Shown: positions 30,326 to 63,595 of the stretch, in pieces | How positions within the stretch are numbered: the stretch's first letter is position 1 | Layout of the letters: each line of letters starts with the position of its first letter | Assembly: GCA_946544115.1 (NCBI GenBank) | Contig: CAMNLW010000001.1 | Location: 16,392 to 80,391, forward strand | Source: an uncultured Verrucomicrobiota bacterium | Lineage (GTDB): Bacteria; Verrucomicrobiota; Kiritimatiellia; RFP12; UBA1067 | Direction: 5' to 3' | Length of the DNA stretch: 64,000 bases | Made by a program: the position numbers and the translations under genes | Notes under the pieces: generated by a model | Database searches by the model: none | The model's input: only the letters and a program-made list of their open reading frames with translations | What the model was told of the DNA's origin: nothing

Positions 30326-31434
30326 GTTCACGCATTGGAGGAAATTTCTTTACGGCCCACTACGACTGGATCGTTGCGGGGGTCGCGGTGGTGGCGTTTG
30401 CCTGCGCCGTGGTGTTTTTCACGGGCGCGCTTGAGGAGGACGCCGACGCGCAGACCGCGGCGGCCGTTCGCAGGATAGAGTCGCGCAAGCCCGATGGAAG
30501 CGGCGTGAAGCCTGCCGACATGGAGTGGTATGCGCGGATCACCAAGCTTGCCAAGGCGCCGCTCACCATGAATCCCGTCAATGAAAAAGGCGGCAGTTTC
30601 CTCGCGAGCGACCGTCGCGTGTTCTGCGTAAAGCAGGAATGCCGCGCTCCGATTCCGCCGGCGACGAAGATCTGTCCGTACTGCAACGAACCCCAGCCCG
30701 AGGAGCAGGCGCCGGTCGCGGTGCTCGACGCCGACGGTGACGGCCTGCCGGACGAGTGGGAGCGCAAGTACGGTTTGTCGCCGAGCGATGCTGGCGACGC
30801 CGACGCGGACGCCGACGGCGACGGCTTCACGAACGCCGAGGAATTTGCGGCGGGTACGAATCCGACAGATCGCAACGATCACCCGGACTATCTCGATTCC
30901 ATCAAGATCGCGCTTCCTCTCAAGGAGACGGTGCTGCCTTTCTTCCTGCAGTCGTATCAGAAGAGTCCAGCCGGGATGAGGCTCGACCTCTTCGACCCGA
31001 AGAAGCGCAACGACTACGGAACGCTCGGAAAGTCGTACCTCACGCTCGTCGGCCAGGACGTCGGCGACACTGGCTTCACGGTCAAGAGCTTCGAGAAGAA
31101 GGAGAAGCGCGTCAAGGTCGCCGGCGGCGGCGGCGCGGTGAAATCGGTGGACGTCTCGTACGCAGTCATAGTTCGCAAGAGCGACGGCAAGGAAATAAGG
31201 CTGTCGATCACCGCGCAAGGAAAGCCCAGACGTGTGCCGATCGACGTGCAGGCCCGGCTGCTGTACGAGCGCGGCGAGACGAAGGAGTTCCTGGTGGTGC
31301 CGGGCGATACGATCGACCTAAATGGAACGAAGTATTCAATCAAGGCGATCAACCGCCTGTCCAATGGCGCGTCGGTGACATTCGAGCACTCTACGCTCGG
31401 AACGACGCGGACACTTCAAGCACTTGAATCGTAA
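30322..31434 (+). CDS. membrane protein with a Zn-ribbon-like Cys pairs and TSP3-type Ca-binding repeats (Amuc_1099 position)
   Basis: TM helix WIVAGVAVVAFACAVVFFTG. Cys pairs in CVKQECRAPIPPATKICPYC. DADGDGLPDEWERKYGLSP..DADADGDGFTNAEEFAAGTNPTD. Confidence 0.75.
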   Translation: MSSRIGGNFFTAHYDWIVAGVAVVAFACAVVFFTGALEEDADAQTAAAVRRIESRKPDGSGVKPADMEWYARITKLAKAPLTMNPVNEKGGSFLASDRRVFCVKQECRAPIPPATKICPYCNEPQPEEQAPVAVLDADGDGLPDEWERKYGLSPSDAGDADADADGDGFTNAEEFAAGTNPTDRNDHPDYLDSIKIALPLKETVLPFFLQSYQKSPAGMRLDLFDPKKRNDYGTLGKSYLTLVGQDVGDTGFTVKSFEKKEKRVKVAGGGGAVKSVDVSYAVIVRKSDGKEIRLSITAQGKPRRVPIDVQARLLYERGETKEFLVVPGDTIDLNGTKYSIKAINRLSNGASVTFEHSTLGTTRTLQALES

Positions 31435-31452: not shown

Positions 31453-31487
31453 ACACTCAGACTTTGAACAAGGAGCATGAGATCGTT

Positions 31488-34400: not shown

Positions 34401-34757
34401 TCTCTCTCTGCAACAGGTGAAAAGAACATGACCTATTACGAGGCGCCTATGGAGCAGCCGTTCTTCCACGTTCGCTCGATTGTTTCCTCCGTCTCGATCA
34501 ATCCCGGGTCGACGATTGTCATGGGCGGTCTTATAACCGAGAGCCGTCAGGCTATGGACGACAAGGTTCCGTTCCTCGGCGATCTGCCTTTCGTCGGCAG
34601 GCTCTTCCGCAGCCATGCAGAGCAGACGATCAAGAAGAATCTCCTCATCTTCGTGACGAGCCGTCTTCTCGACGTCCGCGGCCGCGAGGTCGCGGCCGGC
34701 AGTCCCAACGATGGAGAAACGGGCGTCAAGTCAGCGCCTGAGGCTTCGGCGAATTGA
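31488..34757 (+). CDS. secretin (GspD/PilQ family; Amuc_1098-type) with an acidic EEPAx repeat and a helical TPR-like N-terminal region
   Basis: The C-terminal secretin signature is GSTIVMGGLITE...KVPFLGDLPFVGRLFRS...KNLLIFVTSRLL. Signal peptide MTNLKKTAAVSVAAAVIACVPFAFA. The track start is TTG 31464; ATG 31488 has AAGGAG 13 nt upstream. Confidence 0.9.
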   Translation: MTNLKKTAAVSVAAAVIACVPFAFAQDDLDDLLKDLESDLAAETAPAEAVAPATVEEPVAEEPTAEEPVAEEPAAVEPVADEPAQEEPAAEEPAVEEPAQEEPAVEEPATEEPAVVAPAAEEPVAVEPAAEEPAVEEPAAAEPEPAVVDAGPVAVAPVPAPAAAPVDPDAELLDNLRTTERLRREAYDEQAKREIVAARKSMSEGAYDDATRAYGNALKLLNDSPATKDLRRECEQGIAEGQYRQALEEERLGRRENAVEMMEKAKALRHPKARRQLEAWNKTTDPNANKTAISDVRHRRNDADYKAQREKNRRHLRRARQLLSVRDIDKALDECELVLVNDPYNQEAIRLRGAIQKKRALILNQEFNVTRDAMIADVDKAWRPVYAPNARQLEESASSTLKRSVGDDPERSVEQSIIQRMKEIVLPTISFKPPATIIQAIETFRTYSKDFDRPDIPLEERGFNFVVKMPDALLSKTSEQSADDSDDFSSTGDETDSSQAGVPIIPMITANAISFYDALKLVCDSVDYKFQVKGPVVMVMHKDQAIDEMITRQYPVMAAFMEKMDTVSNDVKEMGLGFGGGRSNSRGGDSEEENKEQDWKGVFSALGVQWPEGSTIFYMKATGKLYVKNTEENLAELEKALIALNAEQKLIEIEARFVEVSQQDLNSLGFEWILNSNYTLGSGGWLGRKLGMKKGGWGEGYKAQTQPIPVKNADGTISSVDTTTYTGDGNTSWRKTGLVNGTPTRLNSGIAGINSMGGENATFGDVNRYLSRTGNAVSGQDQSSNDQFMKVNAFLGSADLSMILHMLSQRTDTDLLSAPKVLTRPGENAVIKVVTEYIYPTDYNVQLQSSSSSGSSSNGGSQSAILAVVEPEQFETREVGVILDVTPTLTDDGNLIDLKLDTKVVDEPTWKNYGMKIPYSGNSSSLQSFEGIGEIFSSLAELITDVGGELTTSTRQMIVDNATSSAISAMDSLSATGEKNMTYYEAPMEQPFFHVRSIVSSVSINPGSTIVMGGLITESRQAMDDKVPFLGDLPFVGRLFRSHAEQTIKKNLLIFVTSRLLDVRGREVAAGSPNDGETGVKSAPEASAN
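31653..31922 (+). repeat. 15-nt periodic coding repeat: 18 consecutive EEPAx-type pentapeptides in the secretin
   Basis: EEPVA EEPTA EEPVA EEPAA VEPVA DEPAQ EEPAA EEPAV EEPAQ EEPAV EEPAT EEPAV VAPAA EEPVA VEPAA EEPAV EEPAA AEPEP. Confidence 0.9.
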
Positions 34758-52814: not shown

Positions 52815-52847
52815 TTCATCCGGCAGTAGACACTAAACCGAAGAATG

Positions 52848-52856
52848 TGGTATAAT
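52848..52856 (+). promoter_or_regulatory. candidate extended -10 (TGgTATAAT) for the gspF-pseudopilin operon
   Basis: AATGTGGTATAATtatc, 28 nt upstream of ATG 52885. Confidence 0.5.
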
Positions 52857-52884
52857 TATCACAACACTTGACAAGGGTTGAAAC

Positions 52885-54201
52885 ATGGCGACATTCCAAT
52901 ACATCGCAAAGGACTCCGCAGGCAACGAGACCCGCGGACAGATCGAAGCAGGCGACCGCAGTTCCGCAATCGCGGCGGTCCGCGCCCAGGGGCTGTTCCC
53001 GACGGCACTCGGCGAGGTGAAGTCCGCCCCCGCTGCAGCTGCGGTCGCGCCCGCCAAGGCGAAAAAGGCCAAAGCGCCGGCGAAGAAGTCCGGCGGGCTG
53101 AACAAAGACATCAAGATCAACATCAAGATGCCGTCGTGGATGCGCGGCAAGGTGAACACCAAGGTCCTCACCCAGTTCACGCGCCAGCTCGCGACGCTCG
53201 TCAACGCCGGCCTGCCGCTCATGCGCGGAATCGAGGTATTGAAGCGTCAGATGAAAGACCCCCAGATGGTCGAGGCGCTCGGCGGTATCGCCGACAACAT
53301 CGCCTCGGGCGGAACCTTCTCGGAGGCGCTCACGCAGTACCCGAAGATATTCGACAAACTCTATGTCAACATGGTGAAGGCCGGCGAGGCGGGCGGCGTG
53401 CTTGAAGTCGTCCTCGGGCGTCTGGCGGAGTTTGCCGAGAAATCCGAAAAGATCAAGAACAAGGTGAAGGGCGCGATGATCTATCCTATCGTCGTCCTCT
53501 TCGCGGCCATCGGCATCACGGGCTTCCTGCTCGTCGCGGTCATACCGAAGTTCAAGCAGGTGTTCAACGACATGCTCGGCGGCGCGGCCCTGCCGCCCAT
53601 CACCGAGGCCGTCATGCAGGCTTCCGAGTTCGTGCAGCACAACGGCCTCGTGATAGTCGCGATAGTCGCGGCGATCGTCGTGATAAAGAAGATCGTCGGC
53701 CACACCGAGGCGGGCGCCTACTTCTTCGACGTATGCTCGCTCAAGGCCCCTGTGACGGGAACCCTCGTGCAGCGCACGGCCGTTTCGCGCGTCACGCGAA
53801 CGCTCGGCACGCTGCTCTCCTCGGGCGTGCCGATCCTGCAGTCGCTAGTGATCGTGCGCGACACGACGGGCAACCGCGTCGTCTCGAAAGCGCTCCAGGA
53901 GGTTCATGACGCCGTGAAGGAGGGCGAGGGCATGACCCAGCCGCTGTCGCAGTGCCCCGTGTTTCCGCCGATGGTAGTCTCGATGGTGGAGGTCGGTGAA
54001 GAGACGGGCGCGCTCGCCGACATGCTTACGCGTATCGCCAACACCTACGACGACGAGGTCGACAACGCCGTCGCCGGCATGACCGCCGCGATCGAGCCTG
54101 CGCTCATCATCGTGCTCGCCGTCGTCGTCGGCACGATCGTCATCGCGATGTTCCTGCCGATGATCAAGATCATCTCTTCCGTGTCGGGAGGCGCGGCCTA
54201 A
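52885..54201 (+). CDS. gspF: type II secretion / type IV pilus platform protein (GspF/PilC family)
   Basis: FQYIAKDSAGNETRGQIEA start. Two GspF repeats (FTRQLATLVNAGLPL..., VTRTLGTLLSSGVPIL...) and three TM segments. Confidence 0.9.
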   Translation: MATFQYIAKDSAGNETRGQIEAGDRSSAIAAVRAQGLFPTALGEVKSAPAAAAVAPAKAKKAKAPAKKSGGLNKDIKINIKMPSWMRGKVNTKVLTQFTRQLATLVNAGLPLMRGIEVLKRQMKDPQMVEALGGIADNIASGGTFSEALTQYPKIFDKLYVNMVKAGEAGGVLEVVLGRLAEFAEKSEKIKNKVKGAMIYPIVVLFAAIGITGFLLVAVIPKFKQVFNDMLGGAALPPITEAVMQASEFVQHNGLVIVAIVAAIVVIKKIVGHTEAGAYFFDVCSLKAPVTGTLVQRTAVSRVTRTLGTLLSSGVPILQSLVIVRDTTGNRVVSKALQEVHDAVKEGEGMTQPLSQCPVFPPMVVSMVEVGEETGALADMLTRIANTYDDEVDNAVAGMTAAIEPALIIVLAVVVGTIVIAMFLPMIKIISSVSGGAA

Positions 54202-55353
54202 GTGAAGAAGGCCTTTACACTGGTTGAGCTCATGATCGTGGTCGTGGTGATCGCGATCCTGGCCAGCATAACGTTCAGGATAGCGGGCATCGGGCAGGAT
54301 TCAACCCAGCGCAACCGCACGATCGCCCGCCTCCAGCGCCTTGAAAACGCCATATCCGGCTACTTCGCGGCGTACGGCAGCTACCCGGCCGTTCCGCTGG
54401 AAGGCCGCAGCCGCAACATCTACTACAGGGTGAACGGCTACGGCATCCAGCAGACCGACAGCGAGCCCGATACTTCGCGCCTCGAATGGAAGCGCGTCGA
54501 GGCCGCATGCAGGGCGCAGCCGATCGCGATGTGCTTCCCGTTCGCCTCTTCGCGCCAAGAGTATGTAAGGACGGTCTCCGACGCCCTCAAGGAACTCCAC
54601 AACAGCAGCGACAAAACTTCGGCCTATGCCAAGAACGCGGCGCTCGCCTACGGCTTCGACGCGCTCGACAACCCCGAGACGCTGTCGTCCAAGAAGAACG
54701 AGAGCGACTGGACCCGGCTTCAGATGTTCCAGTTCGGCCTCATGAGCTTCCTCCTGCCGCGCTACCTGCTGATGATGGGTCACTCCAACAACAACGTCTA
54801 CGACAATTTCTCGCAGTGGAGCTCCAACAACCAGCTCCCGTGCAGGTTCGAGACGGGTGTCCCCTACGGCAGCTGGAACGAGCTCAACCAGGATCTCTCC
54901 AAGTCGGCAGAGAAGTGGAAGATCGCCCTCATGCCGTCGCAGGCCGTATGCGCGCGCTGGGTGGCGAACTTCGAGAACATCCTCTCCTGCGAGTCGGACC
55001 TCGTAGTATACGGTGTGCACTTGAAGGGCAGGGAGTATCGCGACGGCGGCAATGTCTCTGCCTACAACCCCTACCCTGTTCTCTACTCCGCCGCCAACAG
55101 CCAGGGCGGCGAGGGAACGAGCGGCAGCCAGCAGTATGCGCTCGACATAATAACCTGCCGCGACGGCTGGTATAACGAGTTCTACTACTACTCGCCGCCG
55201 CCCTACCAGACCTACCGCCTCTGGAGCGCCGGCCCGAACGGAAAGACGTTCCCTCCGTGGATCTCGCCCGAGGAGATAGAAAAGCTCAACGGCTCCGAAA
55301 AGAACACCGTCCGCAACTGGATGGCCGACGACATAGTGCATATGAGGAACTGA
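54202..55353 (+). CDS. prepilin-type N-terminal cleavage/methylation domain protein (383 aa, long pseudopilin)
   Basis: (M)KKAFTLVELMIVVVVIAILASI class III signal with Glu at +5. GTG start directly after the gspF stop, with GGGAGG upstream. Confidence 0.85.
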   Translation: MKKAFTLVELMIVVVVIAILASITFRIAGIGQDSTQRNRTIARLQRLENAISGYFAAYGSYPAVPLEGRSRNIYYRVNGYGIQQTDSEPDTSRLEWKRVEAACRAQPIAMCFPFASSRQEYVRTVSDALKELHNSSDKTSAYAKNAALAYGFDALDNPETLSSKKNESDWTRLQMFQFGLMSFLLPRYLLMMGHSNNNVYDNFSQWSSNNQLPCRFETGVPYGSWNELNQDLSKSAEKWKIALMPSQAVCARWVANFENILSCESDLVVYGVHLKGREYRDGGNVSAYNPYPVLYSAANSQGGEGTSGSQQYALDIITCRDGWYNEFYYYSPPPYQTYRLWSAGPNGKTFPPWISPEEIEKLNGSEKNTVRNWMADDIVHMRN

Positions 55354-55355
55354 TC

Positions 55356-55979
55356 ATGAAAAAAGGTTTTACTCTTGTTGAAATGCTTGTGGTCATGGGT
55401 ATTCTCGCGGTCCTGATGGGAGCGTCCCTCGGCGGATACTCCGCATTCGTGAAGAAAGCCCAGCGCGCGCGCGCCGTGGAGCTTGTCGCCAACGTGCAGA
55501 CCGCGCTGGAAGCCGTGCTGCAGCGCGAAGACGCGTGGCCCCGGGCGCTTCTCGCCGGCAACAACGGCGGCCGCGGCGAGATGACGGCCGAGGTCGGCGC
55601 GGCGCTCGCCAAGCGCGGCGTAATGTCGCTCACCTATAAGAAGACCGAACGCGACGGCGACACGATATACGTCCTCACGGGTCTCGACCAGTGCGGCATC
55701 GTTTCTCCATGGGCCGCCGCCGCCATAAAACGCGCTGCCGCCAACGGATCGGTCAGCGATTCGCTGAGGGTCGCCGAAGGCGGCACCATCGCGGACCATC
55801 GTCTCAGATACGCGATTGACGATGACTACGACGGTGTCACCGACGTCGGCGTGAGCCAGAACGGTTCAGGCTCGTGCAAGGTTCGCGCCAACGCCTGCGT
55901 GTGGTGCTGCGGCATGGACGGCAAGTTCGGCACGAAGGATGATATCTACAGCTGGTCCGCCGGACAGGAGGTGCACTGA
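55356..55979 (+). CDS. GspG-like pseudopilin (207 aa)
   Basis: MKKGFTLVEMLVVMGILAVLMG. The C-terminal GMDGKFGTKDDIYSW resembles the GspG G(A/P)DG..G..DDI..W tail. Confidence 0.85.
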   Translation: MKKGFTLVEMLVVMGILAVLMGASLGGYSAFVKKAQRARAVELVANVQTALEAVLQREDAWPRALLAGNNGGRGEMTAEVGAALAKRGVMSLTYKKTERDGDTIYVLTGLDQCGIVSPWAAAAIKRAAANGSVSDSLRVAEGGTIADHRLRYAIDDDYDGVTDVGVSQNGSGSCKVRANACVWCCGMDGKFGTKDDIYSWSAGQEVH

Positions 55980-56599
55980 TGAAAAAGGGTTTCACGCTTG
56001 TTGAAATGCTCGTCGTGATCGCCGTCATAGGCATTCTGGGCGGGATCGTCACCACGGCGGCCGTCGGCGCGATCAAGAACGGCCGCTCCAAGAGGGCCGA
56101 CGCGATGTGCGTCGCGCTCGAACAGGGAATCGCCGCCTATTACGCGCAGGAGGGAAACTGGCCCGACGCGATCGAGAAAAAGGCGCAGTCGATGGATTCC
56201 GCCACCTACACCTTCACGCCCGACGAGGCCGACAGCATATTCCAGGATGTCGTAGGGTGCGGCTTCGGCAAGGGTCACGCGAGCCACAAGGCGATGCTCG
56301 TCGACGCGACGGCCCTCTTTGTGTGCGACAAGTCGAGCGTCGGCAACCAGCAGCGCGGCTGCTACGACAACCATTCCAACAAGAAAGAGCGAAGAACGTA
56401 CTGCGCCGGCATGGGGTGCCGCAACGGCATCGACTTCTCGGAGGCGACCAAGAAGGGCGGGAAAGTCCGCATACCGTTCTCACAGATGGCGTTCGGCTTT
56501 CAGGGGCCGGAAAACGGCAAGTTCTGCCGGTTCTGGATCACCTATAACGGACAGGCCGATTCGGTCTCGGTTTCAAGACGCGGCCCGGACCTGAACTGA
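55979..56599 (+). CDS. prepilin-type pseudopilin (206 aa)
   Basis: MKKGFTLVEMLVVIAVIGILGGIV. TGATG overlap with the upstream gene. Confidence 0.85.
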   Translation: MKKGFTLVEMLVVIAVIGILGGIVTTAAVGAIKNGRSKRADAMCVALEQGIAAYYAQEGNWPDAIEKKAQSMDSATYTFTPDEADSIFQDVVGCGFGKGHASHKAMLVDATALFVCDKSSVGNQQRGCYDNHSNKKERRTYCAGMGCRNGIDFSEATKKGGKVRIPFSQMAFGFQGPENGKFCRFWITYNGQADSVSVSRRGPDLN

Positions 56600-56612
56600 C
56601 GGAGGCGACTTG

Positions 56613-57431
56613 ATGCGCAAAGGGTTTACATTGCTGGAACTGCTCGTCGTCGTCGGCATCATGGGCATGCTCGGCGTCGCCGCGGCCGGCGGATATTCCG
56701 CGCTTGTGCGCGGCATGAGCGAACGCGGCGCGGTGGCGTCGGCGGCGTCGCTTCTGAGGGCCGCGAAGGAGCGCGCCCAGGTCGACAGGTCCCCGACGGT
56801 CGTCTACTGCTACAACAGGCTCGTCAAGGAACCGACAGGCGTGGACGACAACGGCGTGGTAGTGGGCGTAATGACGGCGGTGCGCCGCGCGGGGCGCATA
56901 ACCTACACGACCGGCGGCGACGTGCTCTATGATGAATTCGCCGACCTCGACCGCAACTACGAATATGAGACGAGCACGACAGACCTCAAGAAGGGCGGCG
57001 GCTTTCGTCTCTTCCGCATAAGCGGCAGAGTCAACAAGATGGAGTATTCCATCGTTTCCGACAGAGTCCTGCGCGACGAGAACAACACCGTGACGGTTTT
57101 TTCCGGCAGCCAGCAGGGCGGCCGCACGAACCTCCTCATGAGCGCTTTCGTGAAGACGGGCGTCACGAGCGCCAACGAGGCCCAGTGGAAGATAGGCGAC
57201 GGCTACGGAATGGAGTTCGCCGAGGTGCAGCTGCCCGACGGTTACATCTTCGGCAAGACAGTTCCGTCCCAGGCGGGGCGCGTGACGGTGGAGAAGGTCG
57301 TGTATTTCGACCCCGACCAGGATTCCACCGAGACGATCGATGTATGGTCCACCAAGCCGAACGCCTCGGGCATGCCGCAGGCGTTCAAGAAGGCCGGTCA
57401 GGCTTCGGCCGACAACGACAAGGGAGTGTAG
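56613..57431 (+). CDS. prepilin-type pseudopilin (272 aa, GspH-like position)
   Basis: MRKGFTLLELLVVVGIMGMLGV. The track start is TTG 56610, one codon upstream. Confidence 0.8.
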   Translation: MRKGFTLLELLVVVGIMGMLGVAAAGGYSALVRGMSERGAVASAASLLRAAKERAQVDRSPTVVYCYNRLVKEPTGVDDNGVVVGVMTAVRRAGRITYTTGGDVLYDEFADLDRNYEYETSTTDLKKGGGFRLFRISGRVNKMEYSIVSDRVLRDENNTVTVFSGSQQGGRTNLLMSAFVKTGVTSANEAQWKIGDGYGMEFAEVQLPDGYIFGKTVPSQAGRVTVEKVVYFDPDQDSTETIDVWSTKPNASGMPQAFKKAGQASADNDKGV

Positions 57432-57433
57432 CG

Positions 57434-58012
57434 ATGAAGTTCATGAAAAACAGGCCTGGCTTTACGCTGCTTGAGGTGAATCTCGCCATATTCATCATGG
57501 CGACCGGCGTGCTTGTTATGTGCGGTCTTTACTCTCTAGGCTTCAGGGAGAACCGCCAGAGCGTCGAGGACGTGGCATCCGCCGCGTTTGCCGACGCCTA
57601 CCTGGGGCCGCTTGTCCAGGGGCTTTCGGCGACGAACATGCCCTGGTCGGCATGGATACAGATCGGCGACTCGCCGTCCAACAGCGACACCACCCGCGTC
57701 GCCGACGGCGTATGGCCGAGCGACGGATGGATGTCTTACGTGCAGCAGGTCGGCACCACGGCCAACTACCGCATAAAGGGAACACCACGCGCCACCGCCG
57801 ACGGCGTGTTCCAGAAAATCCTCTCCAAGGTGCCCTCGCCATACAAGGGGAGCAACCCGGGGCTTCCTTCCGATTACCAGTACGGGTTCGTGGCGACGCG
57901 CTGCGGCGCGACGGTCCAGCTGGCGTTCAGAGCGTCGCGGCGCAAGGAGGCGCTCATGTCACAGCCGCTCTTCGTTTCTGAGGTTCACTTCCAGGGAGAT
58001 CCGGAGAGATGA
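57434..58012 (+). CDS. minor pseudopilin (GspI-like N-terminus, 192 aa)
   Basis: MKFMKNRPGFTLLEVNLAIFIMATGVLVM. The track ORF 57185 extends upstream inside the preceding gene. Confidence 0.8.
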   Translation: MKFMKNRPGFTLLEVNLAIFIMATGVLVMCGLYSLGFRENRQSVEDVASAAFADAYLGPLVQGLSATNMPWSAWIQIGDSPSNSDTTRVADGVWPSDGWMSYVQQVGTTANYRIKGTPRATADGVFQKILSKVPSPYKGSNPGLPSDYQYGFVATRCGATVQLAFRASRRKEALMSQPLFVSEVHFQGDPER

Positions 58013-58521
58013 AAAAGGGCTTTACACTTGTCGAGCTTATGGTGGCGAGCCTCCTGCTCGCGATGCTCGTGACGATTCTTACCATGATGTTCAACCAGTC
58101 GTCCATCGCGTGGCGGACCGGCACGGCAGGCGTCGCCGACCTCAACGAGACGCGCTGGTCGCTCGGCTCCTTCCACGACGTGCGCGACGAGGCTCTGCCG
58201 GGTCTAGGCGACCAGTCTCCCTCGGTCGGCGCGAGCGACAGCAGGACGGTCAAGTACCGCACAATGCCGCTTTGGGATCCGAACGGCGACAACAGACTCC
58301 GCAACAGGCGGGCGTTCAGCATCGAGAACTCCAGCATGAACTGGGGCCACGCGCCGAGCTTTTCGATAAACGACGCCATGACTGCGGCGAAGAAGGCGGT
58401 GTCGGGCGCAGGCAACGGCGGCGGCTCCTCGCTCTTCACCGTCGGCGTGAGGAGCGCCGGGCCCAACAGGACGTTCGGCGACGAGGACGACATAACAACC
58501 TGGCCGGAGGACATCGACTGA
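58009..58521 (+). CDS. minor pseudopilin (GspJ-like N-terminus, 170 aa)
   Basis: MKKGFTLVELMVASLLLAMLVTILTMMFNQSSIAW. ATGA overlap with the upstream gene. Confidence 0.8.
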   Translation: MKKGFTLVELMVASLLLAMLVTILTMMFNQSSIAWRTGTAGVADLNETRWSLGSFHDVRDEALPGLGDQSPSVGASDSRTVKYRTMPLWDPNGDNRLRNRRAFSIENSSMNWGHAPSFSINDAMTAAKKAVSGAGNGGGSSLFTVGVRSAGPNRTFGDEDDITTWPEDID

Positions 58522-59003
58522 TGAAGAAGGCTTTTACACTTGTCGAACTTCTGGTCGTGATCGCGATGATAGCGGTTCTGACCGGCGCCATGACTGTGGC
58601 GGTGAACGGAGCGCGAACGCGCGCGAAGATTTCAAAGGCCACCCAGGAGGCGAAGGAGATGACCAACGCAATCCTCGCCGGCGAGCAGTATGCGCGCGGG
58701 AGGACGCTCGAAGATTACGCCAACGGCTCGTGGGCGGACTGCTCCGAAGGGGCGAAGGCGATGCGTCTCATACTCGGCGGCGAGACGAGCGAAAGCGGCG
58801 AAACCATACCGGTTCTCTTCAACGCCAATCTGTCGCGCGGCTACCAGCTCGACCCGTGGGGCAAGCCCTACCAGTATATGATACAGAAGACGGCGAGCCT
58901 TTCGAGCGACGACGCGACCGGCGGCAAGGTACAGTTCTGCACGGCGCCCGCCCTGCCGAACTTCTTCAGGCTCACAGACAAGGAGCGTAGTTGTGATCGT
59001 TGA
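58521..59003 (+). CDS. gspG: type II secretion major pseudopilin GspG-like (160 aa)
   Basis: MKKAFTLVELLVVIAMIAVLTGA...AKISKATQEAKEM and the conserved DPWGKPYQY core. TGATG overlap with the upstream gene. Confidence 0.85.
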   Translation: MKKAFTLVELLVVIAMIAVLTGAMTVAVNGARTRAKISKATQEAKEMTNAILAGEQYARGRTLEDYANGSWADCSEGAKAMRLILGGETSESGETIPVLFNANLSRGYQLDPWGKPYQYMIQKTASLSSDDATGGKVQFCTAPALPNFFRLTDKERSCDR

Positions 59004-62000
59004 AAAGTCCAGAAAAGGTTCCGCGCTGCTTATCGTAATCGGAATGCTCTCGTTCATGGTCGTCTCGGCCGTGAGCTTCTCGATATACATGCGCCAGAGC
59101 CGCGTGCCCTCGAGCTACCTGCGCCGCGCGTCGTCGTCGCGCTACCTCCTCAAGGCCGCGCTCGCCCACGCGATAGACCGGCTTGACGGCACCTTCGCGA
59201 GCTATGCCGATATAAACGAGCCGTCTCTCGGGAACAGTTCTGTGAACGGACTTGTCGAAGGTGTATATGACGATCCCTACCCGGGCGTAGGCCCGTCGCA
59301 GAGCAATGACAACGACACTTATCACCGACGAAACGGCGACTTTTGGGATCACCGCGTATTCACTCCGTTCGGCATGGTCTCGCCGCTCAAGACAGTATCC
59401 ACCATGACGCTCGAAGGCCTCGCCTACGTTCCGCCGGCCCTCATCAACGAGGCGCGCATCTATTCTCGCCAGACGCGCACAGCCATGTGGCGCAACCTTT
59501 CCTACGACATGGGGCGCTATGCGTTCTCGGCTATAGACGTTTCGGACTGCTTCGACATCAACCGCGTCCGCGCTGGCGAGCGCCGCACATCCGCGCCCGA
59601 CGGCCGCGTCAACCTCTCGTCTCTTTACGACACGAACGGTTCGACGCTAGACCAGAAGCTCAAGCTGTGGGAGAACGACGACATTCCTTTTGTTTCGGTT
59701 GCCGACTTCAACATCGCCGCCGGGCAGAGCCCGTTCACGCCCTTTTACAAGTACATCGGCTCCACCAGCAGCGAAATCTACAGTTCTGGCGACGCCAACA
59801 CAGTTTCCAATGCGCTCTTTATAACCGACACCTGGTTCCCCGCGACGAACAGCACGACATCGGTCAAGCGCTACGACCTGGCAGGGAAAGACCAGCCCTT
59901 CATGCAATATCCAGATACAATGTCTCTAAGGGACATGATAACCGGGACGACCGATTTCTGCAAGATGCTCACCAAGAACATTGGCGTAGGCATCGCCTGC
60001 CTTTACGACTACCTTGATGAAGACAGCTTCCCGATTTCGTTCTGTCTGCCGACGGTCGAAGCGGCTCCTATGATATGCGGTATCGGCCTTCTGCACAACA
60101 ACTCGTTCACCCCCACAGTCGCGGCCGGGAATGACATTGTCGAGGGCGAGTATACGAAGGACAGGCAGAAAGTAAAGTGGAGAGCCACCCCCTACAGACT
60201 GACAAAGCTTGCCGGCGCGATGCTTCTCAACGGAGCAGCGACGTTTCCTTTCAAGCGCCTTGGCGCGAGAGACGGCTATCAGACGTCGTTCACCGGTCGT
60301 GCGCTCGTAAGGATCTTCATGGGACCTCCCTCGATGAAGTGCCGTGTTGCAGGCAACTCGCCGCTTTATCCAACAAAAAACGACTGGAACAACAGCAATC
60401 AGACTGTTGCCGACGGTATGGTTTCCTATGCGGTCGATCTCGACCAGGTCCAGTTTGCCCAGAATATAGAGAAGCAGGATGACGCTGTTAAAAACCTTAC
60501 GGCCCGTCTCACCCTGCAGCAGGTCAACAGCATCGTCTACTGGCTTGTAGAGCAGGAGGGTATGGACGAAGAAGGCAACCGCACGCAATTCGATCCATAT
60601 ATATCGTTCGACGGCTGCGCGGGCGGTCTTGCGCCTCGAGATGCCGACGGAAAGATTGAAAGCTGGTGGACCGCCCAGACCAAAAACCCCGCGCCGACTC
60701 CCGAGCGGCTGCCGACGCAGTCTACCGTAAGCACCGCGCAGTATGTACCGCATATTGCGGTCTGGATGAGGCTTGACAGCGGTTCGGATACGGTGGACAT
60801 CGTTCCTGCCCGTCTTGACGACGACGCTACATGGGGCAGGCGTTCTGTGAACCTTGCAAACCAGGCCGACAAGTTCGGCGGCGCGGGAACCCCGATCCTT
60901 GAGTTCCGCGGCCAGCGGCCTTTTACATATTCTCTTGACAACGACACTGGTATAGCTACGGTTTTGAACGGAACGGCCGAGTCATTTGACAACTGGGCCG
61001 AGTTCTACGCGCCCGACCCTCGCTACAACTATGCGCCCGAGGATTGGTGCCCTTCGAAGGGCAATGGCGCGGTTACAGGCGCCAAATGGCTCGACAGGCT
61101 TGGCGCGAAGGACGGCAGCGGCAGCATCATGGGCAAGAATGGGCGCGACAAGGACATATTCATGTTTGTAAGCGACCAGGAGTACATGCAGTCCATCGGC
61201 GAGCTTGAGTTTCTTCCGCTTCTCGCGGACCTTAACGGCAGCCAGAACTTCTTTGACAACAACTTCCTCGACGCGATGAGTGCCAACTTGAACGGAGCCG
61301 ACTTTGCGTCGCGTACGATACTTAGCGATGGTGACAAGCTCTCGCTCAACGGTCTCGCAAGCCGCGACTTCATGTGGCGCACGTATTCCGCGTATGACGG
61401 CGACCCGATATACGATCTTCGCGACGGCAGTGCTCCGGTGGAGGTTGTGAACGGAACGGGAGACTTCAGGGTGAATCCGTTCTCCAGCGATACGCGTGTT
61501 CTCATGGCGGCGCTCAAGGACACGCCCTTCGACTACTATGTGGCGAGCACCAACAAGACTCTGAACAACACTGTGAACGACAAGCCTGCAAACGCCCAGA
61601 AATATGCGTTTGCACGAGGCTCGACTTATGCCCCGCTCGATGACGACGAGTTGCAGGATCTTGCCTCTGCCATGCGCACGGGCTTTACGGCGTCCGCCAA
61701 GGATGGTCGTTCATGGGAGAGTGCATTTGAAGAACTTGAGTGGTACAGGAATTCTGAATACGGCGACGAACAGCTTTCTCTCTTCGGCGTCGATCTAAAC
61801 AATCCGCTTCACGGTGTCGACCGTAAGTATCTTCATGCGTTCTGGCGCGACTGCTTCCAGAACAGGCAACAGCTGTTCCTGGTGTTCATAAGGGCCGAGC
61901 CTCTTTCGGTCGGCGGTTCCGCCTCGAGCACGGCCGCGAGCTCCCAGCTCGGCGCGCGCGGTGTCGCGCTCGTCTGGCGCGATCCTGCGCCGCCGGTGCG

Positions 62001-62115
62001 CGGCGGGAACCGTCCTTCGCGTCTCGACCTTGTCTCGCGCGAGCAGTGGCGACAGTTCTACCAGAGCTATGCGCCCCACCGCACAAGGGTTCTCTTCTAC
62101 CATCAGTTTGAATGA
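58993..62115 (+). CDS. giant GspK-like protein (1040 aa), putative filament tip/cap protein
   Basis: The N-terminus KGSALLIVIGMLSFMVVSAVSFSIYM...LLKAALAHAIDRL resembles the GspK RGxALLxVL leader, which lacks Glu at +5. GTG start with AAGGAG 7 nt upstream, overlapping gspG by 11 nt. I recognise nothing in the remaining ~950 aa. Confidence 0.8.
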   Translation: MIVEKSRKGSALLIVIGMLSFMVVSAVSFSIYMRQSRVPSSYLRRASSSRYLLKAALAHAIDRLDGTFASYADINEPSLGNSSVNGLVEGVYDDPYPGVGPSQSNDNDTYHRRNGDFWDHRVFTPFGMVSPLKTVSTMTLEGLAYVPPALINEARIYSRQTRTAMWRNLSYDMGRYAFSAIDVSDCFDINRVRAGERRTSAPDGRVNLSSLYDTNGSTLDQKLKLWENDDIPFVSVADFNIAAGQSPFTPFYKYIGSTSSEIYSSGDANTVSNALFITDTWFPATNSTTSVKRYDLAGKDQPFMQYPDTMSLRDMITGTTDFCKMLTKNIGVGIACLYDYLDEDSFPISFCLPTVEAAPMICGIGLLHNNSFTPTVAAGNDIVEGEYTKDRQKVKWRATPYRLTKLAGAMLLNGAATFPFKRLGARDGYQTSFTGRALVRIFMGPPSMKCRVAGNSPLYPTKNDWNNSNQTVADGMVSYAVDLDQVQFAQNIEKQDDAVKNLTARLTLQQVNSIVYWLVEQEGMDEEGNRTQFDPYISFDGCAGGLAPRDADGKIESWWTAQTKNPAPTPERLPTQSTVSTAQYVPHIAVWMRLDSGSDTVDIVPARLDDDATWGRRSVNLANQADKFGGAGTPILEFRGQRPFTYSLDNDTGIATVLNGTAESFDNWAEFYAPDPRYNYAPEDWCPSKGNGAVTGAKWLDRLGAKDGSGSIMGKNGRDKDIFMFVSDQEYMQSIGELEFLPLLADLNGSQNFFDNNFLDAMSANLNGADFASRTILSDGDKLSLNGLASRDFMWRTYSAYDGDPIYDLRDGSAPVEVVNGTGDFRVNPFSSDTRVLMAALKDTPFDYYVASTNKTLNNTVNDKPANAQKYAFARGSTYAPLDDDELQDLASAMRTGFTASAKDGRSWESAFEELEWYRNSEYGDEQLSLFGVDLNNPLHGVDRKYLHAFWRDCFQNRQQLFLVFIRAEPLSVGGSASSTAASSQLGARGVALVWRDPAPPVRGGNRPSRLDLVSREQWRQFYQSYAPHRTRVLFYHQFE

Positions 62116-63578
62116 CGGCCGCGGTGCTCCTTCTGGCCGCCGCGACTGCGGCTGGCGCACTCGGCGGCTTCTCCGAAGGGGCCAGGCGCGAGCTCGAGTC
62201 CCGCATATCATCGACCCTTGCAGAGGCGGGGACTTCTTCTGATGTATCGGGAACGGTTACTTTCGCCAACGGCGACTTCTTTTTCATACAGAGCGGATCA
62301 GACGCTCTCAAGGTTCTCACGCGCGGCCCTGTTCGCGCCGACCCGCCGCCACGTGTAGGCGAAATCGTCGAAGTGTCGGGCCGTCCTGTTCTTGAAGGCG
62401 GGCGTGTCGTGATGTCCGCCGACGCGTGGAAGACCGTCGGCGCCGCAGGTCTCCCCGAGCCTGTAGCCGCCGACGCCGACTCTCTCGTCTACGCAGGCCT
62501 GGCGCCACGCGGTAAGTGGCGAGCCGCATCGCGCGATCCAAACGACGTGAACTGGCGTCGCGTGGAGGTCGTCGGCCGCGCAATGGGGCGCACCGAGAAC
62601 GGCTTTTCGCTCGAGGTAGCCGACGGCCTTCTCATAAGCGTGATGATACGCGACAAGCCTTCTTTCATTGCGAACTGCGAACGTCTCCACCCTAAGGTCT
62701 CGGTTCGCGGCGTCGCCGAACTCTTTCTCGACCAGAGCGCGCTCTTCGGACGCGGCAGATATGTGATAGGTGTCAGGCTCTGTTCGGCTTCGGCCGACGA
62801 CGTGACGCTCCTGCCGGATTTAGGCTACCAGATGCGCCTGCACGAGCGGAGAGTGTCCATCGCGCTGTGGTCTTCGGTCGCGGCGCTTGTTCTCGGTCTC
62901 GGCGCGCTCATGCTGGTTCTTGTTCGCCACCGCCGGGACAGCCACGCGACCGCGATGGTCATGGCCGACCGCAAGCGCATGGCCGACGACCTCCACGACA
63001 CCATCGAGCAGCATCTCGCCGGTGCGGGCATGCTGCTCAAGCTCGCGCGCATGCCTGCGAACAATCTCGCCGAGCGCGCCGACCGCCCCATACGCGAGGC
63101 GCAGGACATCCTCGTGCGGGCAAAGCGTGAAATGCGCGACATCGTATGGGGCCTCAAGAATGACGACATGATGCGAAAGTCGCCGGCCGACATGCTGCGC
63201 GAGATGGCGGCCGACATGACGCGCCAGGGACTCTTCAGGGTGAGGACGCGTCTCGTTGGGCTGCCAGAGCGGATGGAAGGCGGCAGAATACGCGATCTTT
63301 CCCTTATCGTCCGCGAGGCGATCGGCAACGCCGTCCGCCATGGCCGCGCCCGCAAGATAGCGGTGACGTGCGATCCGATAGGCGAGGGCCCCGGCTGGTT
63401 CCTGCGCGTCGCGAACGACGGGCGCCCCTTTGACCGCGCCGCTGCGCCAGGCCCCGCCGAGGGACACTTCGGGCTGGAGGGCATGGCCGAACGCGCGCGC
63501 CGCATAGGCGGCGAGCTTTCATTCTCGCGCAAGGGCAAGTGGACCGTTGTCACGTGTGCCGTGCGCGCGGAAATATGA
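62112..63578 (+). CDS. sensor histidine kinase (HisKA_3 / HATPase_c, NarX-LiaS type) with a periplasmic sensor domain
   Basis: Signal/TM segment, ~230-aa extracytoplasmic part, TM helix VSIALWSSVAALVLGLGALMLVLV, H-box ADDLHDTIEQHLAGAG, N-box REAIGNAVRHG, G-boxes VANDGRPF and GHFGLEGMAERA. ATGA overlap with the upstream gene. Confidence 0.88.
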   Translation: MTAAVLLLAAATAAGALGGFSEGARRELESRISSTLAEAGTSSDVSGTVTFANGDFFFIQSGSDALKVLTRGPVRADPPPRVGEIVEVSGRPVLEGGRVVMSADAWKTVGAAGLPEPVAADADSLVYAGLAPRGKWRAASRDPNDVNWRRVEVVGRAMGRTENGFSLEVADGLLISVMIRDKPSFIANCERLHPKVSVRGVAELFLDQSALFGRGRYVIGVRLCSASADDVTLLPDLGYQMRLHERRVSIALWSSVAALVLGLGALMLVLVRHRRDSHATAMVMADRKRMADDLHDTIEQHLAGAGMLLKLARMPANNLAERADRPIREAQDILVRAKREMRDIVWGLKNDDMMRKSPADMLREMAADMTRQGLFRVRTRLVGLPERMEGGRIRDLSLIVREAIGNAVRHGRARKIAVTCDPIGEGPGWFLRVANDGRPFDRAAAPGPAEGHFGLEGMAERARRIGGELSFSRKGKWTVVTCAVRAEI

Positions 63579-63595
63579 TAAAATACCAACTTCTA

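What the first reader, a model, noticed from the sequence alone, without database searches (positions are those of the whole stretch)
52885..62115. Type IV-filament/T2SS-like operon with seven prepilin genes, separated from its secretin/PilM module
**Seen in the sequence:**
- gspF is followed by seven back-to-back genes that each open with a class III signal (KKAFTLVEL, KKGFTLVEM x2, RKGFTLLEL, RPGFTLLEV, KKGFTLVEL, KKAFTLVEL).
- A GspK-like gene follows them.
- Most junctions are 0-2 nt gaps or 1-11 nt overlaps; the largest gap, before the fourth prepilin gene, is 13 nt. The block therefore looks like one translationally coupled unit behind a TGgTATAAT promoter.
- The prepilins are 160-383 aa long.
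- Only the seventh carries the GspG core DPWGKPYQY. The second carries the GspG-like tail GMDGKFGTKDDIYSW.
- No GspE-type ATPase, prepilin peptidase, GspC, GspL or GspM lies in the operon.
- The only secretin and PilM/GspL-like genes are about 18 kb upstream (27687-34757), inside a different conserved cluster.

**Established knowledge:** canonical T2SS operons encode one major (G) and four minor (H, I, J, K) pseudopilins in that order. The TIGRFAM 'Verru_Chthon cassette' families (B, C and D prepilin-like, plus a large protein A) describe a similar unit in Verrucomicrobia whose function is unknown.

**Inference:** this may be a filament system distinct from a textbook T2SS, for example a surface fibre or a secretion piston with extra pilin isoforms.
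Basis: partly seen in the sequence, partly recalled or inferred. Interest (0 to 1): 0.75.

Follow-up and report, generated by a model that had tools for sequence, protein, structure and literature searches.

The report
Seven-pilin operon with giant tip protein
This is a real, tightly packed operon, conserved across gut and rumen Kiritimatiellae, that encodes a platform protein, seven different pilin-like subunits and a 1040-residue cap protein with an exchangeable middle part; it is an uncharacterised variant of the known type IV filament / type II secretion machinery, not a new kind of system.

Summary
gspF/pilC (52885-54201) is followed by seven prepilin genes and a 1040-aa gene (to 62115). 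Junctions run from -11 to +13 nt, and a TAGACA-18-TGgTATAAT promoter precedes the block.

- **Conservation.** The eight-gene block P1-P7-K keeps the same order and sizes in every one of about 70 related Kiritimatiellae loci with enough flank. gspF adjoins it in about half of them. The secretin/PilM module is never within 10 kb.
- **Family assignment.** No protein reaches the curated cut-offs for GspG/H/I/J/K, PilV or Verru_Chthon A-D. Sub-threshold matches and position give a colinear reading: F, G-like (P1), P2, P3, H-like (P4), I/PilV-like (P5), J-like (P6), G-core (P7), K.
- **The K protein.** K resembles GspK only in its first 60-70 residues. Confident AlphaFold models of K and P1 have no neighbour in the PDB.
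- **New here.** K is mosaic. In a strain whose other operon proteins are 97-100% identical, K residues 301-800 are only 29-57% identical.
- **Upstream module.** It is homologous to Akkermansia Amuc_1098-1101.

Best reading: these are the fibre subunits of a PVC-type type IV filament, capped by a modular giant K. Whether it is an exposed adhesive fibre or a secretion pseudopilus is unresolved. It is a new variant of a known kind, of moderate interest.

The parts
52827..52856 (+). sigma-70-like promoter: TAGACA, 18-nt spacer, TG-extended TATAAT
   Evidence: matches 11 of 12 positions and is the best site in 52600-64000. It lies 29 nt upstream of the gspF ATG.
52885..54201 (+). GspF/PilC platform protein (438 aa)
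   Evidence: Pfam T2SSF E = 1.8e-64. NCBIfam GspF scores 383.9 bits against a cut-off of 424; PilC (Thermus) scores 383.1 against 700. The best 120 database clusters are 82-100% identical.
54202..55353 (+). P1: 383-aa prepilin in the gspG position; GspG-like C-terminal sheet plus a large helical insert
   Evidence: Pfam N_methyl scores 25.8 bits. T2SSG scores 19.3 bits at residues 315-348, just under the gathering score of 21. Many orthologues carry a precomputed PF08334 hit. The AlphaFold model has pLDDT 86.8 and no PDB neighbour.
55356..55979 (+). P2: 207-aa prepilin with a GspG-like calcium-loop tail
   Evidence: Pfam N_methyl scores 32.6 bits. The tail reads GMDGKFGTKDDIYSW. hhalign links its tail to the P6 tail with 94% probability.
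55979..56599 (+). P3: 206-aa prepilin
   Evidence: Pfam N_methyl scores 31 bits. It is a separate family, found at the same position in 71 loci.
56613..57431 (+). P4: 272-aa prepilin of the GspH/ComGD/FimU class (sub-threshold)
   Evidence: Of 37 family members, 31 match ComGD (best E = 3.9e-8), 24 match GspH (best 6.3e-8) and 31 match Verru_Chthon D. All matches are below the curated cut-offs and cover only the N-terminal part.
57434..58012 (+). P5: 192-aa prepilin of the PilV/GspI class (sub-threshold)
   Evidence: Of 37 family members, 36 match PilV (best E = 3.5e-8), 33 match Verru_Chthon B and 8 match GspI. The N-terminus reads FTLLEVNLAIFIMA.
58009..58521 (+). P6: 170-aa prepilin with a GspJ/PilW-type helix (ELLVASLLL) and a GspG-like calcium-loop tail
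   Evidence: Of 37 family members, 33 match Verru_Chthon C (best E = 8.9e-7). The tail aligns to the C-terminus of a GspG structure, 29jd_A, at E = 0.016. The tail motif is present in 54 of 75 orthologues.
58521..59003 (+). P7: 160-aa prepilin, the most GspG-like of the seven (DPWGKPYQY)
   Evidence: All 37 family members match GspG (best E = 4.9e-13). The window copy scores 31.9 bits over profile positions 1-105 of 134, against a cut-off of 88.85. DPWG is present in 71 of 77 orthologues.
58993..62115 (+). K: 1040-aa protein with a GspK-type N-terminal helix, a novel body and an invariant C-terminal strand
   Evidence: The window copy has no Pfam or NCBIfam hit. Of 26 relatives, 22 match GspK, but only at profile positions 2-65 of 307 and at no more than 23.5 bits. 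The AlphaFold model has pLDDT 77 and pTM 0.73. Foldseek against PDB and BFVD finds nothing. There are 1062 representative clusters at E <= 1e-3.
59893..61392 (+). Variable, exchangeable middle module of K (about residues 301-800)
   Evidence: blastn finds no match for this stretch in L087, although the flanks are 98.7% and 94.9% identical. Protein identity here is 29-57%, against 93-100% for residues 1-300. P0005 and P0002 show the same mosaic pattern. This is the least conserved part of the family even though it is confidently folded.
62112..63578 (+). HisKA_3 sensor kinase, probably co-transcribed
   Evidence: Pfam HisKA_3 and HATPase_c. Its ATG overlaps the K stop by 4 nt. A LuxR-type regulator follows 2.3 kb downstream on the identical contig. 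A similar regulator adjoins the cassette in 12 other loci.
27687..29318 (+). PilM-like protein fused to a TM segment and a periplasmic tail (GspL-like topology); presumed partner module
   Evidence: Pfam PilM_2 E = 1.6e-41. NCBIfam Amuc_1101_fam scores 401.9 bits against a cut-off of 650. A TM segment lies at residues 372-397.
29315..31434 (+). Amuc_1100-like and Amuc_1099-like bitopic proteins
   Evidence: Amuc_1100_fam scores 57.8 bits against a cut-off of 180. Amuc_1099_fam scores 73.2 bits against a cut-off of 50. Both have N-terminal TM segments.
31464..34757 (+). Secretin (1097 aa), presumed outer-membrane channel for the fibre
   Evidence: Pfam Secretin E = 6.4e-31. Amuc_1098_fam scores 426.7 bits against a cut-off of 750. 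GspD (123 bits) and PilQ (115 bits) score about equally.

Best explanation
**What it is.** The operon encodes the complete fibre-subunit set of the single type IV filament machine of this Kiritimatiellae bacterium, together with the platform protein GspF/PilC.

**Shown**
- There are seven distinct prepilins with intact class III signals, followed by a 1040-aa protein with a GspK-type (Glu5-less) N-terminal helix.
- The genes are translationally coupled behind one promoter.
- The gene order is conserved across the class.

**Inferred mechanism**
1. A prepilin peptidase encoded elsewhere cleaves the leaders.
2. P5 (PilV/GspI class), P6 (GspJ/PilW class) and K form the tip 'licensing' trimer. The invariant C-terminal strand of K (TRVLFYHQF-COOH) completes its own pilin-like sheet in cis, as in GspK and CpaL.
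3. P4 (GspH class) links this cap to the G-like subunits P7, P1, P2 and P3.
4. A GspE/PilB ATPase encoded elsewhere polymerises these subunits on GspF.
5. The fibre passes the Amuc_1098-type secretin encoded 18 kb upstream.

**Function I commit to.** K carries a folded ~500-residue middle module that is swapped between otherwise near-identical strains. I therefore think this module is displayed outside the cell on the fibre tip. There it would act as an adhesin or ligand-capture device, for example for glycans or host mucus. I think a purely periplasmic piston head is less likely.
For: - **Gene structure and signals:**
- **Conservation:** the eight-gene order holds in about 71 of 81 loci, and the other ten are cut by contig ends.
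- **Class assignment by family-wide sub-threshold HMM preference:** P4 to ComGD/GspH; P5 to PilV/GspI; P6 to Verru_Chthon C, with a J-type 'ELLVAS' helix; P7 to GspG in 37 of 37 members; P1 to the Pfam T2SSG domain; K to the GspK N-terminus in 22 of 26 members.
- **Ends of K:** its N- and C-terminal parts are the most conserved. The last 10 residues are nearly invariant and are predicted to form a strand.
- **Published model:** a terminal strand is supplied in cis by GspK or CpaL, or in trans by PilY1 or MshQ (bioRxiv 10.64898/2026.02.14.705861).
- **Mosaic K:** the middle is 29-57% identical in a strain whose F, P1-P7 and HK are 97-100% identical. Other alleles show the reverse pattern.
- **No separate tip adhesin:** no PilY1-like gene is present.
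- **Partner module:** PilM-N fusion, Amuc_1100-like, Amuc_1099-like and secretin genes lie in the same window.
Against: - No globular domain of any of the eight proteins could be tied to a solved G/H/I/J/K structure, by sequence profile or by fold. The class assignments rest on N-terminal helices, short motifs and gene position.
- P7 sits between the putative J and K, whereas I-J-K synteny is usually unbroken.
- No ATPase, peptidase or PilT could be examined, because they lie outside the window and outside every 10-kb flank.
- The functional link to the upstream secretin is only an inference.
- F being followed directly by a G-like gene, the cis strand in K and the GspG signatures are all T2SS-like traits.
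- The cultured relative Kiritimatiella glycovorans is described as having a T2SS, with no mention of pili (PMC5148204).
- A variable middle of K could also reflect variation in secreted substrates.
Confidence: 0.5

Rival explanations
1. It is a type II secretion pseudopilus. The cassette is the gspF-G-H-I-J-K half of the Kiritimatiellae T2SS. The fibre stays periplasmic and pushes folded glycoside hydrolases and sulfatases through the secretin. The giant K is the piston head that contacts the secreted substrates. P1-P3 are accessory pseudopilins.
For: - The block is colinear with gspF-G-H-I-J-K, and F is followed directly by a T2SSG-domain protein.
- GspG signatures are present: DPWG and the calcium-loop tail.
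- K has a GspK-type helix and its own terminal strand, and no PilY1 gene is present.
- The F score lies closest to the GspF cut-off.
- The PilM-N fusion has GspL-like topology.
- A T2SS was inferred for Kiritimatiella glycovorans, which secretes many sulfatases (PMC5148204).
- The cassette often sits beside dnaA, gidA and mnmE, like a housekeeping function.
Against: - No curated Gsp model is met.
- No GspC, GspL or GspM is found by HMM.
- A 115-kDa cap and a 383-aa 'G' subunit are bulky for a periplasmic piston.
- Allelic replacement of 500 residues of K between near-clonal strains is not known for GspK. It is the pattern expected of exposed adhesins.
- The upstream module is the family that NCBI names a type IV pilus complex.
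Confidence: 0.3
2. It is only a minor-pilin operon of a retractile type IVa pilus. The major pilin is encoded elsewhere. P4-P7 and K prime assembly as FimU-PilVWX-PilY1 do. The pilus serves twitching, DNA uptake or adhesion.
For: - PilV is the best named match for P5.
- A PilM-type assembly protein and the Amuc_1098 'type IV pilus' secretin family are present.
- JGI annotates the F orthologues as PilC.
- K has the size of PilY1 or MshQ.
Against: - Four of the seven subunits are G-like or major-pilin-like (P1, P2, P3, P7), and about half of related loci add an eighth. A separate major pilin is therefore not needed.
- In T4aP systems pilC usually sits with pilB, pilD and pilA, not in front of the minor pilins.
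- No pilT or pilB was seen in any flank.
- The cultured relatives are described as non-motile; this is my recollection and was not checked here.
Confidence: 0.12
3. The prepilin-like proteins are not fibre subunits. They are membrane-anchored or exported proteins that merely use the prepilin leader, like the large prepilin-like paralogue families of other PVC bacteria. K is an unrelated envelope protein.
For: - The globular parts have no detectable similarity to solved pilins.
- PVC genomes are known to carry many prepilin-leader proteins of unknown role; this comes from my own knowledge.
Against: - The fixed order, fixed stoichiometric set and translational coupling with GspF argue for an assembly.
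- Each position has its own helix type (G/H-type ELLVV, I-type EVNLA, J-type ELLVAS, K-type without Glu5), exactly as in filament tip complexes.
- The GspG core and calcium-loop motifs are present.
Confidence: 0.08

Closest known systems
Type II secretion pseudopilin operon gspF-G-H-I-J-K (for example the ETEC GspIJK tip complex, PDB 3CI0)
   Same: - The platform gene is followed directly by prepilin genes.
- G/H-type, I-type, J-type and K-type N-terminal helices occur in that order.
- The GspG DPWG core and calcium-loop motifs are present.
- The K-type subunit lacks Glu5 and ends in its own beta-strand.
- No PilY1 is present.
   Different: - There are seven prepilins instead of four, plus K.
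- None passes the curated Gsp HMM cut-offs.
- A G-like gene (P7) sits between J and K.
- P1 is a 383-aa 'G' with a helical insert of unknown fold.
- K is 1040 aa instead of about 320 aa. It shows no GspK-domain match and has a recombining middle module.
- gspC, D, E, L, M and O are not in the operon.
T4aP / MSHA minor-pilin plus tip-adhesin sets (fimU-pilVWX-pilY1; mshDOPQ)
   Same: - A priming set of H/I/J/K-class pilins is followed by a tip protein of about 1000-1200 residues.
- A PilM-type assembly protein and a secretin are encoded elsewhere.
- The distal part of the tip protein is variable.
   Different: - Here the large protein itself carries the K-type pilin helix. It is one polypeptide, not PilX plus PilY1.
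- There is no PilY1 beta-propeller or Neisseria_PilC domain hit.
- The platform gene is in the same operon.
CpaL/TadG of Tad pili (a large minor-pilin-like tip protein with a cis C-terminal strand; bioRxiv 10.64898/2026.02.14.705861)
   Same: - The architecture matches: an N-terminal pilin-like part, a large and probably dispensable middle, and a conserved extreme C-terminal strand.
   Different: - The filament clade differs (no Tad genes here).
- K is about 1040 aa against about 600 aa.
- No sequence or fold match was found.
- The cis-strand role of K is only an inference here.
Verru_Chthon cassette A-D (TIGR02600, TIGR02598, TIGR02599, TIGR02596)
   Same: - It is found in the PVC superphylum.
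- It combines small prepilin-type proteins with one large protein.
- P5, P6 and P4/P7 prefer models B, C and D respectively among the specific models.
   Different: - All scores are far below the cut-offs (for example 23 bits against 256.5 for C) and cover only the N-terminal helix.
- K matches model A in 1 of 26 members, at E = 0.029.
- The cassette here has eight genes, not four.
- The paper library holds no literature on that cassette.
Akkermansia muciniphila Amuc_1098-Amuc_1102 'type IV pili' cluster (applies to the upstream module only)
   Same: - The window genes at 27687-34757 match, in order, the Amuc_1101 (PilM-like), Amuc_1100, Amuc_1099 and Amuc_1098 (secretin) family models.
   Different: - Only the Amuc_1099 model is passed above its cut-off.
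- The secretin is 1097 aa with a Pro-rich N-terminus.
- A Listeria-Bacteroides-repeat protein is appended.
- The pilin genes that partner the Akkermansia cluster are not described in the papers I could read.

Membership tests
Type IV filament prepilins (class III signal) | Short basic leader, Gly-1, Phe+1, Glu+5 and a hydrophobic alpha1-N helix | tested here: met
   Pfam N_methyl is above its gathering score for all seven. TIGR02532 is above its cut-off for six of the seven; P5 had no TIGR02532 hit. Every orthologue keeps the motif. The only seven such sites in the window are these genes.
T2SS pseudopilins GspG/H/I/J/K | Score above the NCBIfam equivalog cut-off for TIGR01710, TIGR01708, TIGR01707, TIGR01711 or NF037980 | tested here: not met
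   Best window scores: GspG 36.3 and 31.9 bits against a cut-off of 88.85; GspH 28.9 against 80; GspI 13.7 against 44; GspJ 15.1 against 65. K has no hit; its relatives reach at most 23.5 bits against a cut-off of 130.
T2SS pseudopilins GspG/H/I/J/K | Gene order F-G-H-I-J-K | tested here: inconclusive
   The order of helix types and sub-threshold preferences is F, G-like, (P2, P3), H-like, I-like, J-like, (G-core P7), K. This is colinear but carries three extra genes, one of them between J and K.
T2SS pseudopilins GspG/H/I/J/K | GspK fold: a pilin domain with an inserted alpha-domain, as in PDB 3CI0 | tested here: not met
   Foldseek of the K model (pLDDT 77) against the PDB gives a best E of 5e-3 to an unrelated protein, with TM about 0.04 and no GspK hit. 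The profile search against PDB sequences finds none. A discontinuous pilin domain could escape Foldseek.
T2SS (whole system) | gspC, D, E, L, M and O encoded together with the pseudopilins | tested here: not met
   None of these is in the operon or within 10 kb downstream. The secretin and the PilM-N fusion lie 18 kb upstream. The ATPase and peptidase are not in the window.
T4aP minor-pilin / PilY1 set | PilV (TIGR02523) above its cut-off, and a separate PilY1/PilC adhesin | tested here: not met
   P5 scores 20.6 bits against a cut-off of 52.2. Of 37 relatives, 36 match, but below threshold. No PilY1 or Neisseria_PilC domain occurs in any operon protein or in 26 K relatives.
T4aP (whole system) | Retraction ATPase PilT | not testable with these tools
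   The rest of the genome is not available. No GspE/PilB/PilT-type Walker-A motif was found in the window, and in the 81 flanks scanned (L001-L081) the only hits to that motif pattern were ClpX. The Pfam gene table shows none on the same-strain contig.
Verru_Chthon cassette A-D | Scores above the cut-offs of TIGR02600, TIGR02598, TIGR02599 and TIGR02596 | tested here: not met
   B scores 21.7 bits against 51.4. C scores 23 against 256.5. D scores 28.4 against 70. A gives no hit in the window and E = 0.029 in 1 of 26 relatives.
Large modular tip pilins with a cis C-terminal strand (GspK / CpaL type) | N-terminal pilin-like part and an extreme C-terminal beta-strand that completes its sheet | tested here: inconclusive
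   K has a GspK-type helix. Its last residues are invariant and predicted to form strand 1031-1039. Model coordinates could not be inspected and no multimer could be run.
Amuc_1098-1101 pilus-like cluster (upstream module) | NCBIfam equivalog cut-offs for the four families | tested here: inconclusive
   Amuc_1099_fam scores 73.2 bits and passes its cut-off of 50. Amuc_1101 (401.9 against 650), Amuc_1100 (57.8 against 180) and Amuc_1098 (426.7 against 750) do not pass. The order and the full-length alignments agree.

The most novel reading that the evidence does not exclude
K is a natural one-polypeptide equivalent of 'PilK plus PilY1'. In this reading, a GspK-type priming pilin carries a cassette-like adhesin module of novel fold inserted between the pilin base and the terminal licensing strand. 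That module is swapped by recombination. The seven-pilin fibre is a true heteropolymer with several G-like subunits. The Kiritimatiellae/PVC machine would then be an intermediate between T2SS (cis strand, F-G-H-I-J-K operon) and adhesive T4P (large exposed tip), with strain-specific ligand specificity in the gut.
Probability: 0.3. Interest if true: 0.7.

Novelty: new variant of a known kind. Interest (0 to 1): 0.5.

Why it matters
- **An unexplained export or adhesion route.** Kiritimatiellae are abundant degraders of sulfated and complex glycans in guts, rumens and sediments. How they export enzymes or attach to substrates is unknown.
- **Probably their only type IV filament fibre set.** This cassette is conserved class-wide and is annotated only as 'hypothetical' or 'prepilin-type'.
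- **A test of a recent assembly model.** The giant K subunit offers a natural test of the recently proposed beta-strand 'licensing' model of filament initiation.
- **A possible strain-level determinant.** The recombining middle module of K is a candidate strain-level specificity determinant, for adhesion, phage reception or immune recognition.
- **A lead for Akkermansia.** The homology of the partner module to the Amuc_1098-1101 cluster suggests that the pilin partners of that much-studied cluster may be of the same kind.

Tried and rejected
- **Profile searches against PDB sequences.** Profiles of K, P1, P4, P5, P6 and P7 gave only N-terminal helix hits plus the calcium-loop of P6.
- **Fold searches.** Foldseek found nothing significant for K against PDB and BFVD, or for P1 against PDB. 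The weak EpsG hit for P1 (E = 8.5, 55 columns) is not evidence.
- It was redone with database homologues.
- **ATPase motif scan.** A GspE/PilB Walker-A scan of the window and 81 loci hit only ClpX.
- **Looking for gspF away from the cassette.** I searched for gspF copies not next to the cassette, to see whether they sit with an ATPase. All four long contigs tried had F followed by the cassette.
- **Literature.** There are no papers on the Verru_Chthon cassette and nothing on Kiritimatiellae pilins. The K. glycovorans supplement that lists its T2SS genes is not held.
- **Amuc_1100-like protein against PDB sequences.** No hit.
- **Recent paralogues.** The idea that the seven prepilins are recent paralogues is rejected. 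hhalign of the trimmed profiles links only P2 to P6 (tail) and P2 to P3 (the first attempt timed out).
- **Decaying remnant.** This idea is rejected because of the class-wide conservation of order, lengths and motifs.

Full report
**1.

ORF listing and re-translation give the following genes:
- gspF/pilC at 52885-54201
- seven genes opening with a class III prepilin signal: P1 54202-55353, P2 55356-55979, P3 55979-56599, P4 56613-57431, P5 57434-58012, P6 58009-58521, P7 58521-59003
- a 1040-aa gene at 58993-62115

The junctions are 0, +2, -1, +13, +2, -4, -1 and -11 nt, and each start has a Shine-Dalgarno-like sequence. A TAGACA-18-TG-TATAAT promoter-like site at 52827-52856 is the best in the region.

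Pfam N_methyl is passed by all seven prepilins and T2SSF by the first gene. A six-frame scan of all 64 kb for the signal followed by a hydrophobic stretch finds exactly seven sites, all of them these genes. Nothing in the window matches T2SSE, peptidase A24 or GspC/L/M. The only secretin and PilM genes are at 27687-34757.

**2. It is a conserved, class-wide cassette**

The 1040-aa protein (K) has more than 600 full-length homologues. All lack a Pfam domain, and where they are named they are 'hypothetical protein [Kiritimatiellae bacterium]'. An exhaustive profile search finds 1062 representative clusters at E <= 1e-3 and 421 at E <= 1e-30.

A scan of one genome per species returned 77 loci. 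Where the records carry a PVC label they are named Kiritimatiellae/Kiritimatiellia, Verrucomicrobia or Lentisphaerae; many of the rest are unlabelled or carry unrelated bin names. Sources named in the record titles are mostly rumen and gut samples.

Assigning ORFs in these loci to the window proteins shows the order P1-P2-P3-P4-P5-P6-P7-K in about 71 of 81 loci. The other ten are truncated by contig ends. Gene sizes are conserved too.
- gspF is directly upstream in 39 loci. In the others, unrelated genes precede P1.
- About half of the loci add an eighth prepilin of about 300 aa after K.
- The secretin/PilM module is never within 10 kb.
- No GspE-type ATPase is seen in any flank.

All orthologues of all seven prepilins keep Gly-1, Phe+1 and Glu+5. 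The seven are distinct families. After the N-terminal helix is removed, hhalign links only the C-terminal tails of P2 and P6 (94% probability) and, weakly, P2 with P3.

**3. What the proteins are**

No window protein reaches a curated NCBIfam cut-off for GspG, H, I, J or K, for PilV, or for Verru_Chthon A-D.

Scanning every member of each family gives consistent sub-threshold preferences:

| Protein | Best named matches |
|---|---|
| P4 | ComGD 31/37, GspH 24/37, Verru_Chthon D 31/37 |
| P5 | PilV 36/37, Verru_Chthon B 33/37, GspI 8/37 |
| P6 | Verru_Chthon C 33/37; calcium-loop tail like GspG |
| P7 | GspG 37/37, best E = 4.9e-13; DPWG in 71/77 |
| P1 | Pfam T2SSG just under threshold in the window; recorded for many orthologues |
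| K | GspK 22/26, but only profile positions 2-65 of 307 |

So the block reads F, G-like, P2, P3, H-like, I-like, J-like, G-core, K. It is colinear with gspF-G-H-I-J-K but carries three extra subunits. These assignments rest on helix type, short motifs and position.

Profile searches against PDB sequences see only the N-terminal helix.

AlphaFold models were of good quality:
- K has pLDDT 77 and pTM 0.73.
- P1 has pLDDT 86.8 and pTM 0.84.

Neither model has a significant neighbour in the PDB, nor K in BFVD. P1 is predicted as a long alpha1 helix, a helical domain of about 160 residues and a small C-terminal sheet. K is predicted as an N-terminal helix pair, a mixed region, a beta-rich middle (360-604), an irregular region and three C-terminal strands.

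**4. K is modular and mosaic (new here)**

Across the family, the N-terminal parts (1-40, 121-200) and the C-terminal part (921-1040) are the most conserved. Residues 361-600 are the least conserved, although they are the most confidently folded. The last residues, TRVLFYHQF, are nearly invariant and are predicted to form a strand.

A contig from another sample (L087) carries F, P1-P7 and the downstream kinase at 97-100% protein identity to the window. Its K is 93-100% identical over residues 1-300, only 29-57% identical over 301-800, and 100% identical again at 951-1000. blastn finds no match at all for window 59883-61370.

P0005 shows the same pattern. P0002 shows the reverse, with the middle at 91-97% and the ends at 79-89%. 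The middle module and the base of K therefore have separate histories, which indicates allelic exchange by recombination. By contrast, GspF is 82-100% identical across the best 120 clusters.

**5. The partner module**

The upstream genes match, in order, the NCBIfam models Amuc_1101 (PilM-like), Amuc_1100, Amuc_1099 (above its cut-off) and Amuc_1098 (secretin). This is the Akkermansia cluster described as a type IV pili cluster (PMC10688800).

The PilM-like protein carries a TM segment and a periplasmic tail of about 145 residues. It is a PilM-N fusion with GspL-like topology. GspD and PilQ models score equally on the secretin. The machine therefore mixes T2SS-like and T4P-like traits.

**6. 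Mechanism**

A recent study shows that filament initiation needs a terminal beta-strand that completes the sheet of the K-class minor pilin. The strand is supplied in trans by PilC/PilY1 (and is predicted for MshQ), or in cis by GspK and by the large Tad protein CpaL, whose middle is dispensable (bioRxiv 10.64898/2026.02.14.705861).

K fits the cis architecture. It has a K-type helix, a large variable middle and an invariant C-terminal strand, and there is no separate PilY1.

I therefore propose the following:
- P5, P6 and K form the priming cap.
- P4 links the cap to the G-like subunits (P7, P1, P2, P3).
- These subunits are polymerised on GspF by an ATPase encoded elsewhere.
- The fibre passes the Amuc_1098-type secretin.

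All of these steps are inferred.

Allelic replacement of a folded 500-residue module in near-clonal backgrounds is what is expected of exposed adhesins or receptors. I therefore favour a tip displayed outside the cell (confidence 0.5) over a purely periplasmic T2SS piston (0.3). The remaining two readings are a minor-pilin-only T4aP operon (0.12) and non-filament prepilin-leader proteins (0.08).

The T2SS reading keeps real support:
- the gene order;
- the GspG motifs;
- the cis strand;
- the GspL-like fusion;
- the T2SS inferred for Kiritimatiella glycovorans (PMC5148204).

**7. Comparison and novelty**

The thing works like a T2SS or T4P fibre set, but it fails every curated membership test for Gsp, Pil and Verru_Chthon families that I could run. 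No paper in the library describes it.

It is a new variant of a known kind. The distinguishing features are seven distinct prepilins, a 383-aa G-like subunit of unknown fold, and a giant mosaic K-class cap.

What I could not do:
- inspect model coordinates;
- run multimers;
- see the rest of the genome (ATPases, PilT, peptidase).

Interest is moderate (0.5).

Noticed in passing
window 62112-63578 and beyond (L086:10001-14407): A HisKA_3 sensor kinase overlaps the K stop by 4 nt. On the 100%-identical contig it is followed by two NfnAB-like oxidoreductase genes and a LuxR/GerE response regulator, at gaps of 16, 3 and -4 nt. The transcription unit may therefore extend about 4.4 kb past K. A LuxR-type regulator also adjoins the cassette in 12 other loci, and some gene calls fuse it to P1 (P0297, P0365).
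   Followed up: partly
window 443-11242 and 11660-23638: Two giant + strand ORFs of 3599 and 3992 aa lie upstream of the ackA-pta and secretin clusters. The first has only a Gly_rich_2 Pfam hit; the second was not scanned. They may be surface or secreted proteins.
   Followed up: partly
window 27687-29318: The PilM-like protein is 543 aa. It has an actin-like domain, a TM segment at residues 372-397 and a periplasmic tail. This is a PilM-PilN fusion with the topology of GspL.
   Followed up: partly
window 34754-37354: An 866-aa protein with Listeria-Bacteroides repeats (Flg_new) starts 4 nt before the secretin stop, so it is probably co-transcribed with the secretin module. The 257-aa ORF at 26889-27662, in front of pilM, has no family match.
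   Followed up: no
L082-L085, L001, L003 (relatives): In many relatives the F+cassette block lies next to dnaA, dnaN, gidA (mnmG) and mnmE. That is close to the replication origin, unlike in the window, where rnd and a YkuD transpeptidase precede it. About half of the relatives also carry an eighth prepilin of about 300 aa after K, which the window lacks.
   Followed up: partly
loci L006, L007, L017, L025, L027, L028, L040, L068, L080: Species-representative bins carrying this Kiritimatiellae cassette are labelled Gemmiger, Barnesiella, Methanomethylophilaceae, Christensenella, Alistipes, Faecalibacterium, Muribaculaceae, Lachnospiraceae and Anaerovoracaceae. These are most likely mis-binned contigs or mislabelled bins.
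   Followed up: no
L045 and L055: Two different K-type loci come from the same MAG (CAMORM01). This may be a second cassette copy or strain mixing in the bin.
   Followed up: no
window 49365-50339: A 324-aa ORF downstream of feoB has a signal peptide and a Cys-rich, metallothionein-like N-terminus (CKCGKPECKCGDECRCTAETCKCGCG). It has no Pfam match.
   Followed up: no
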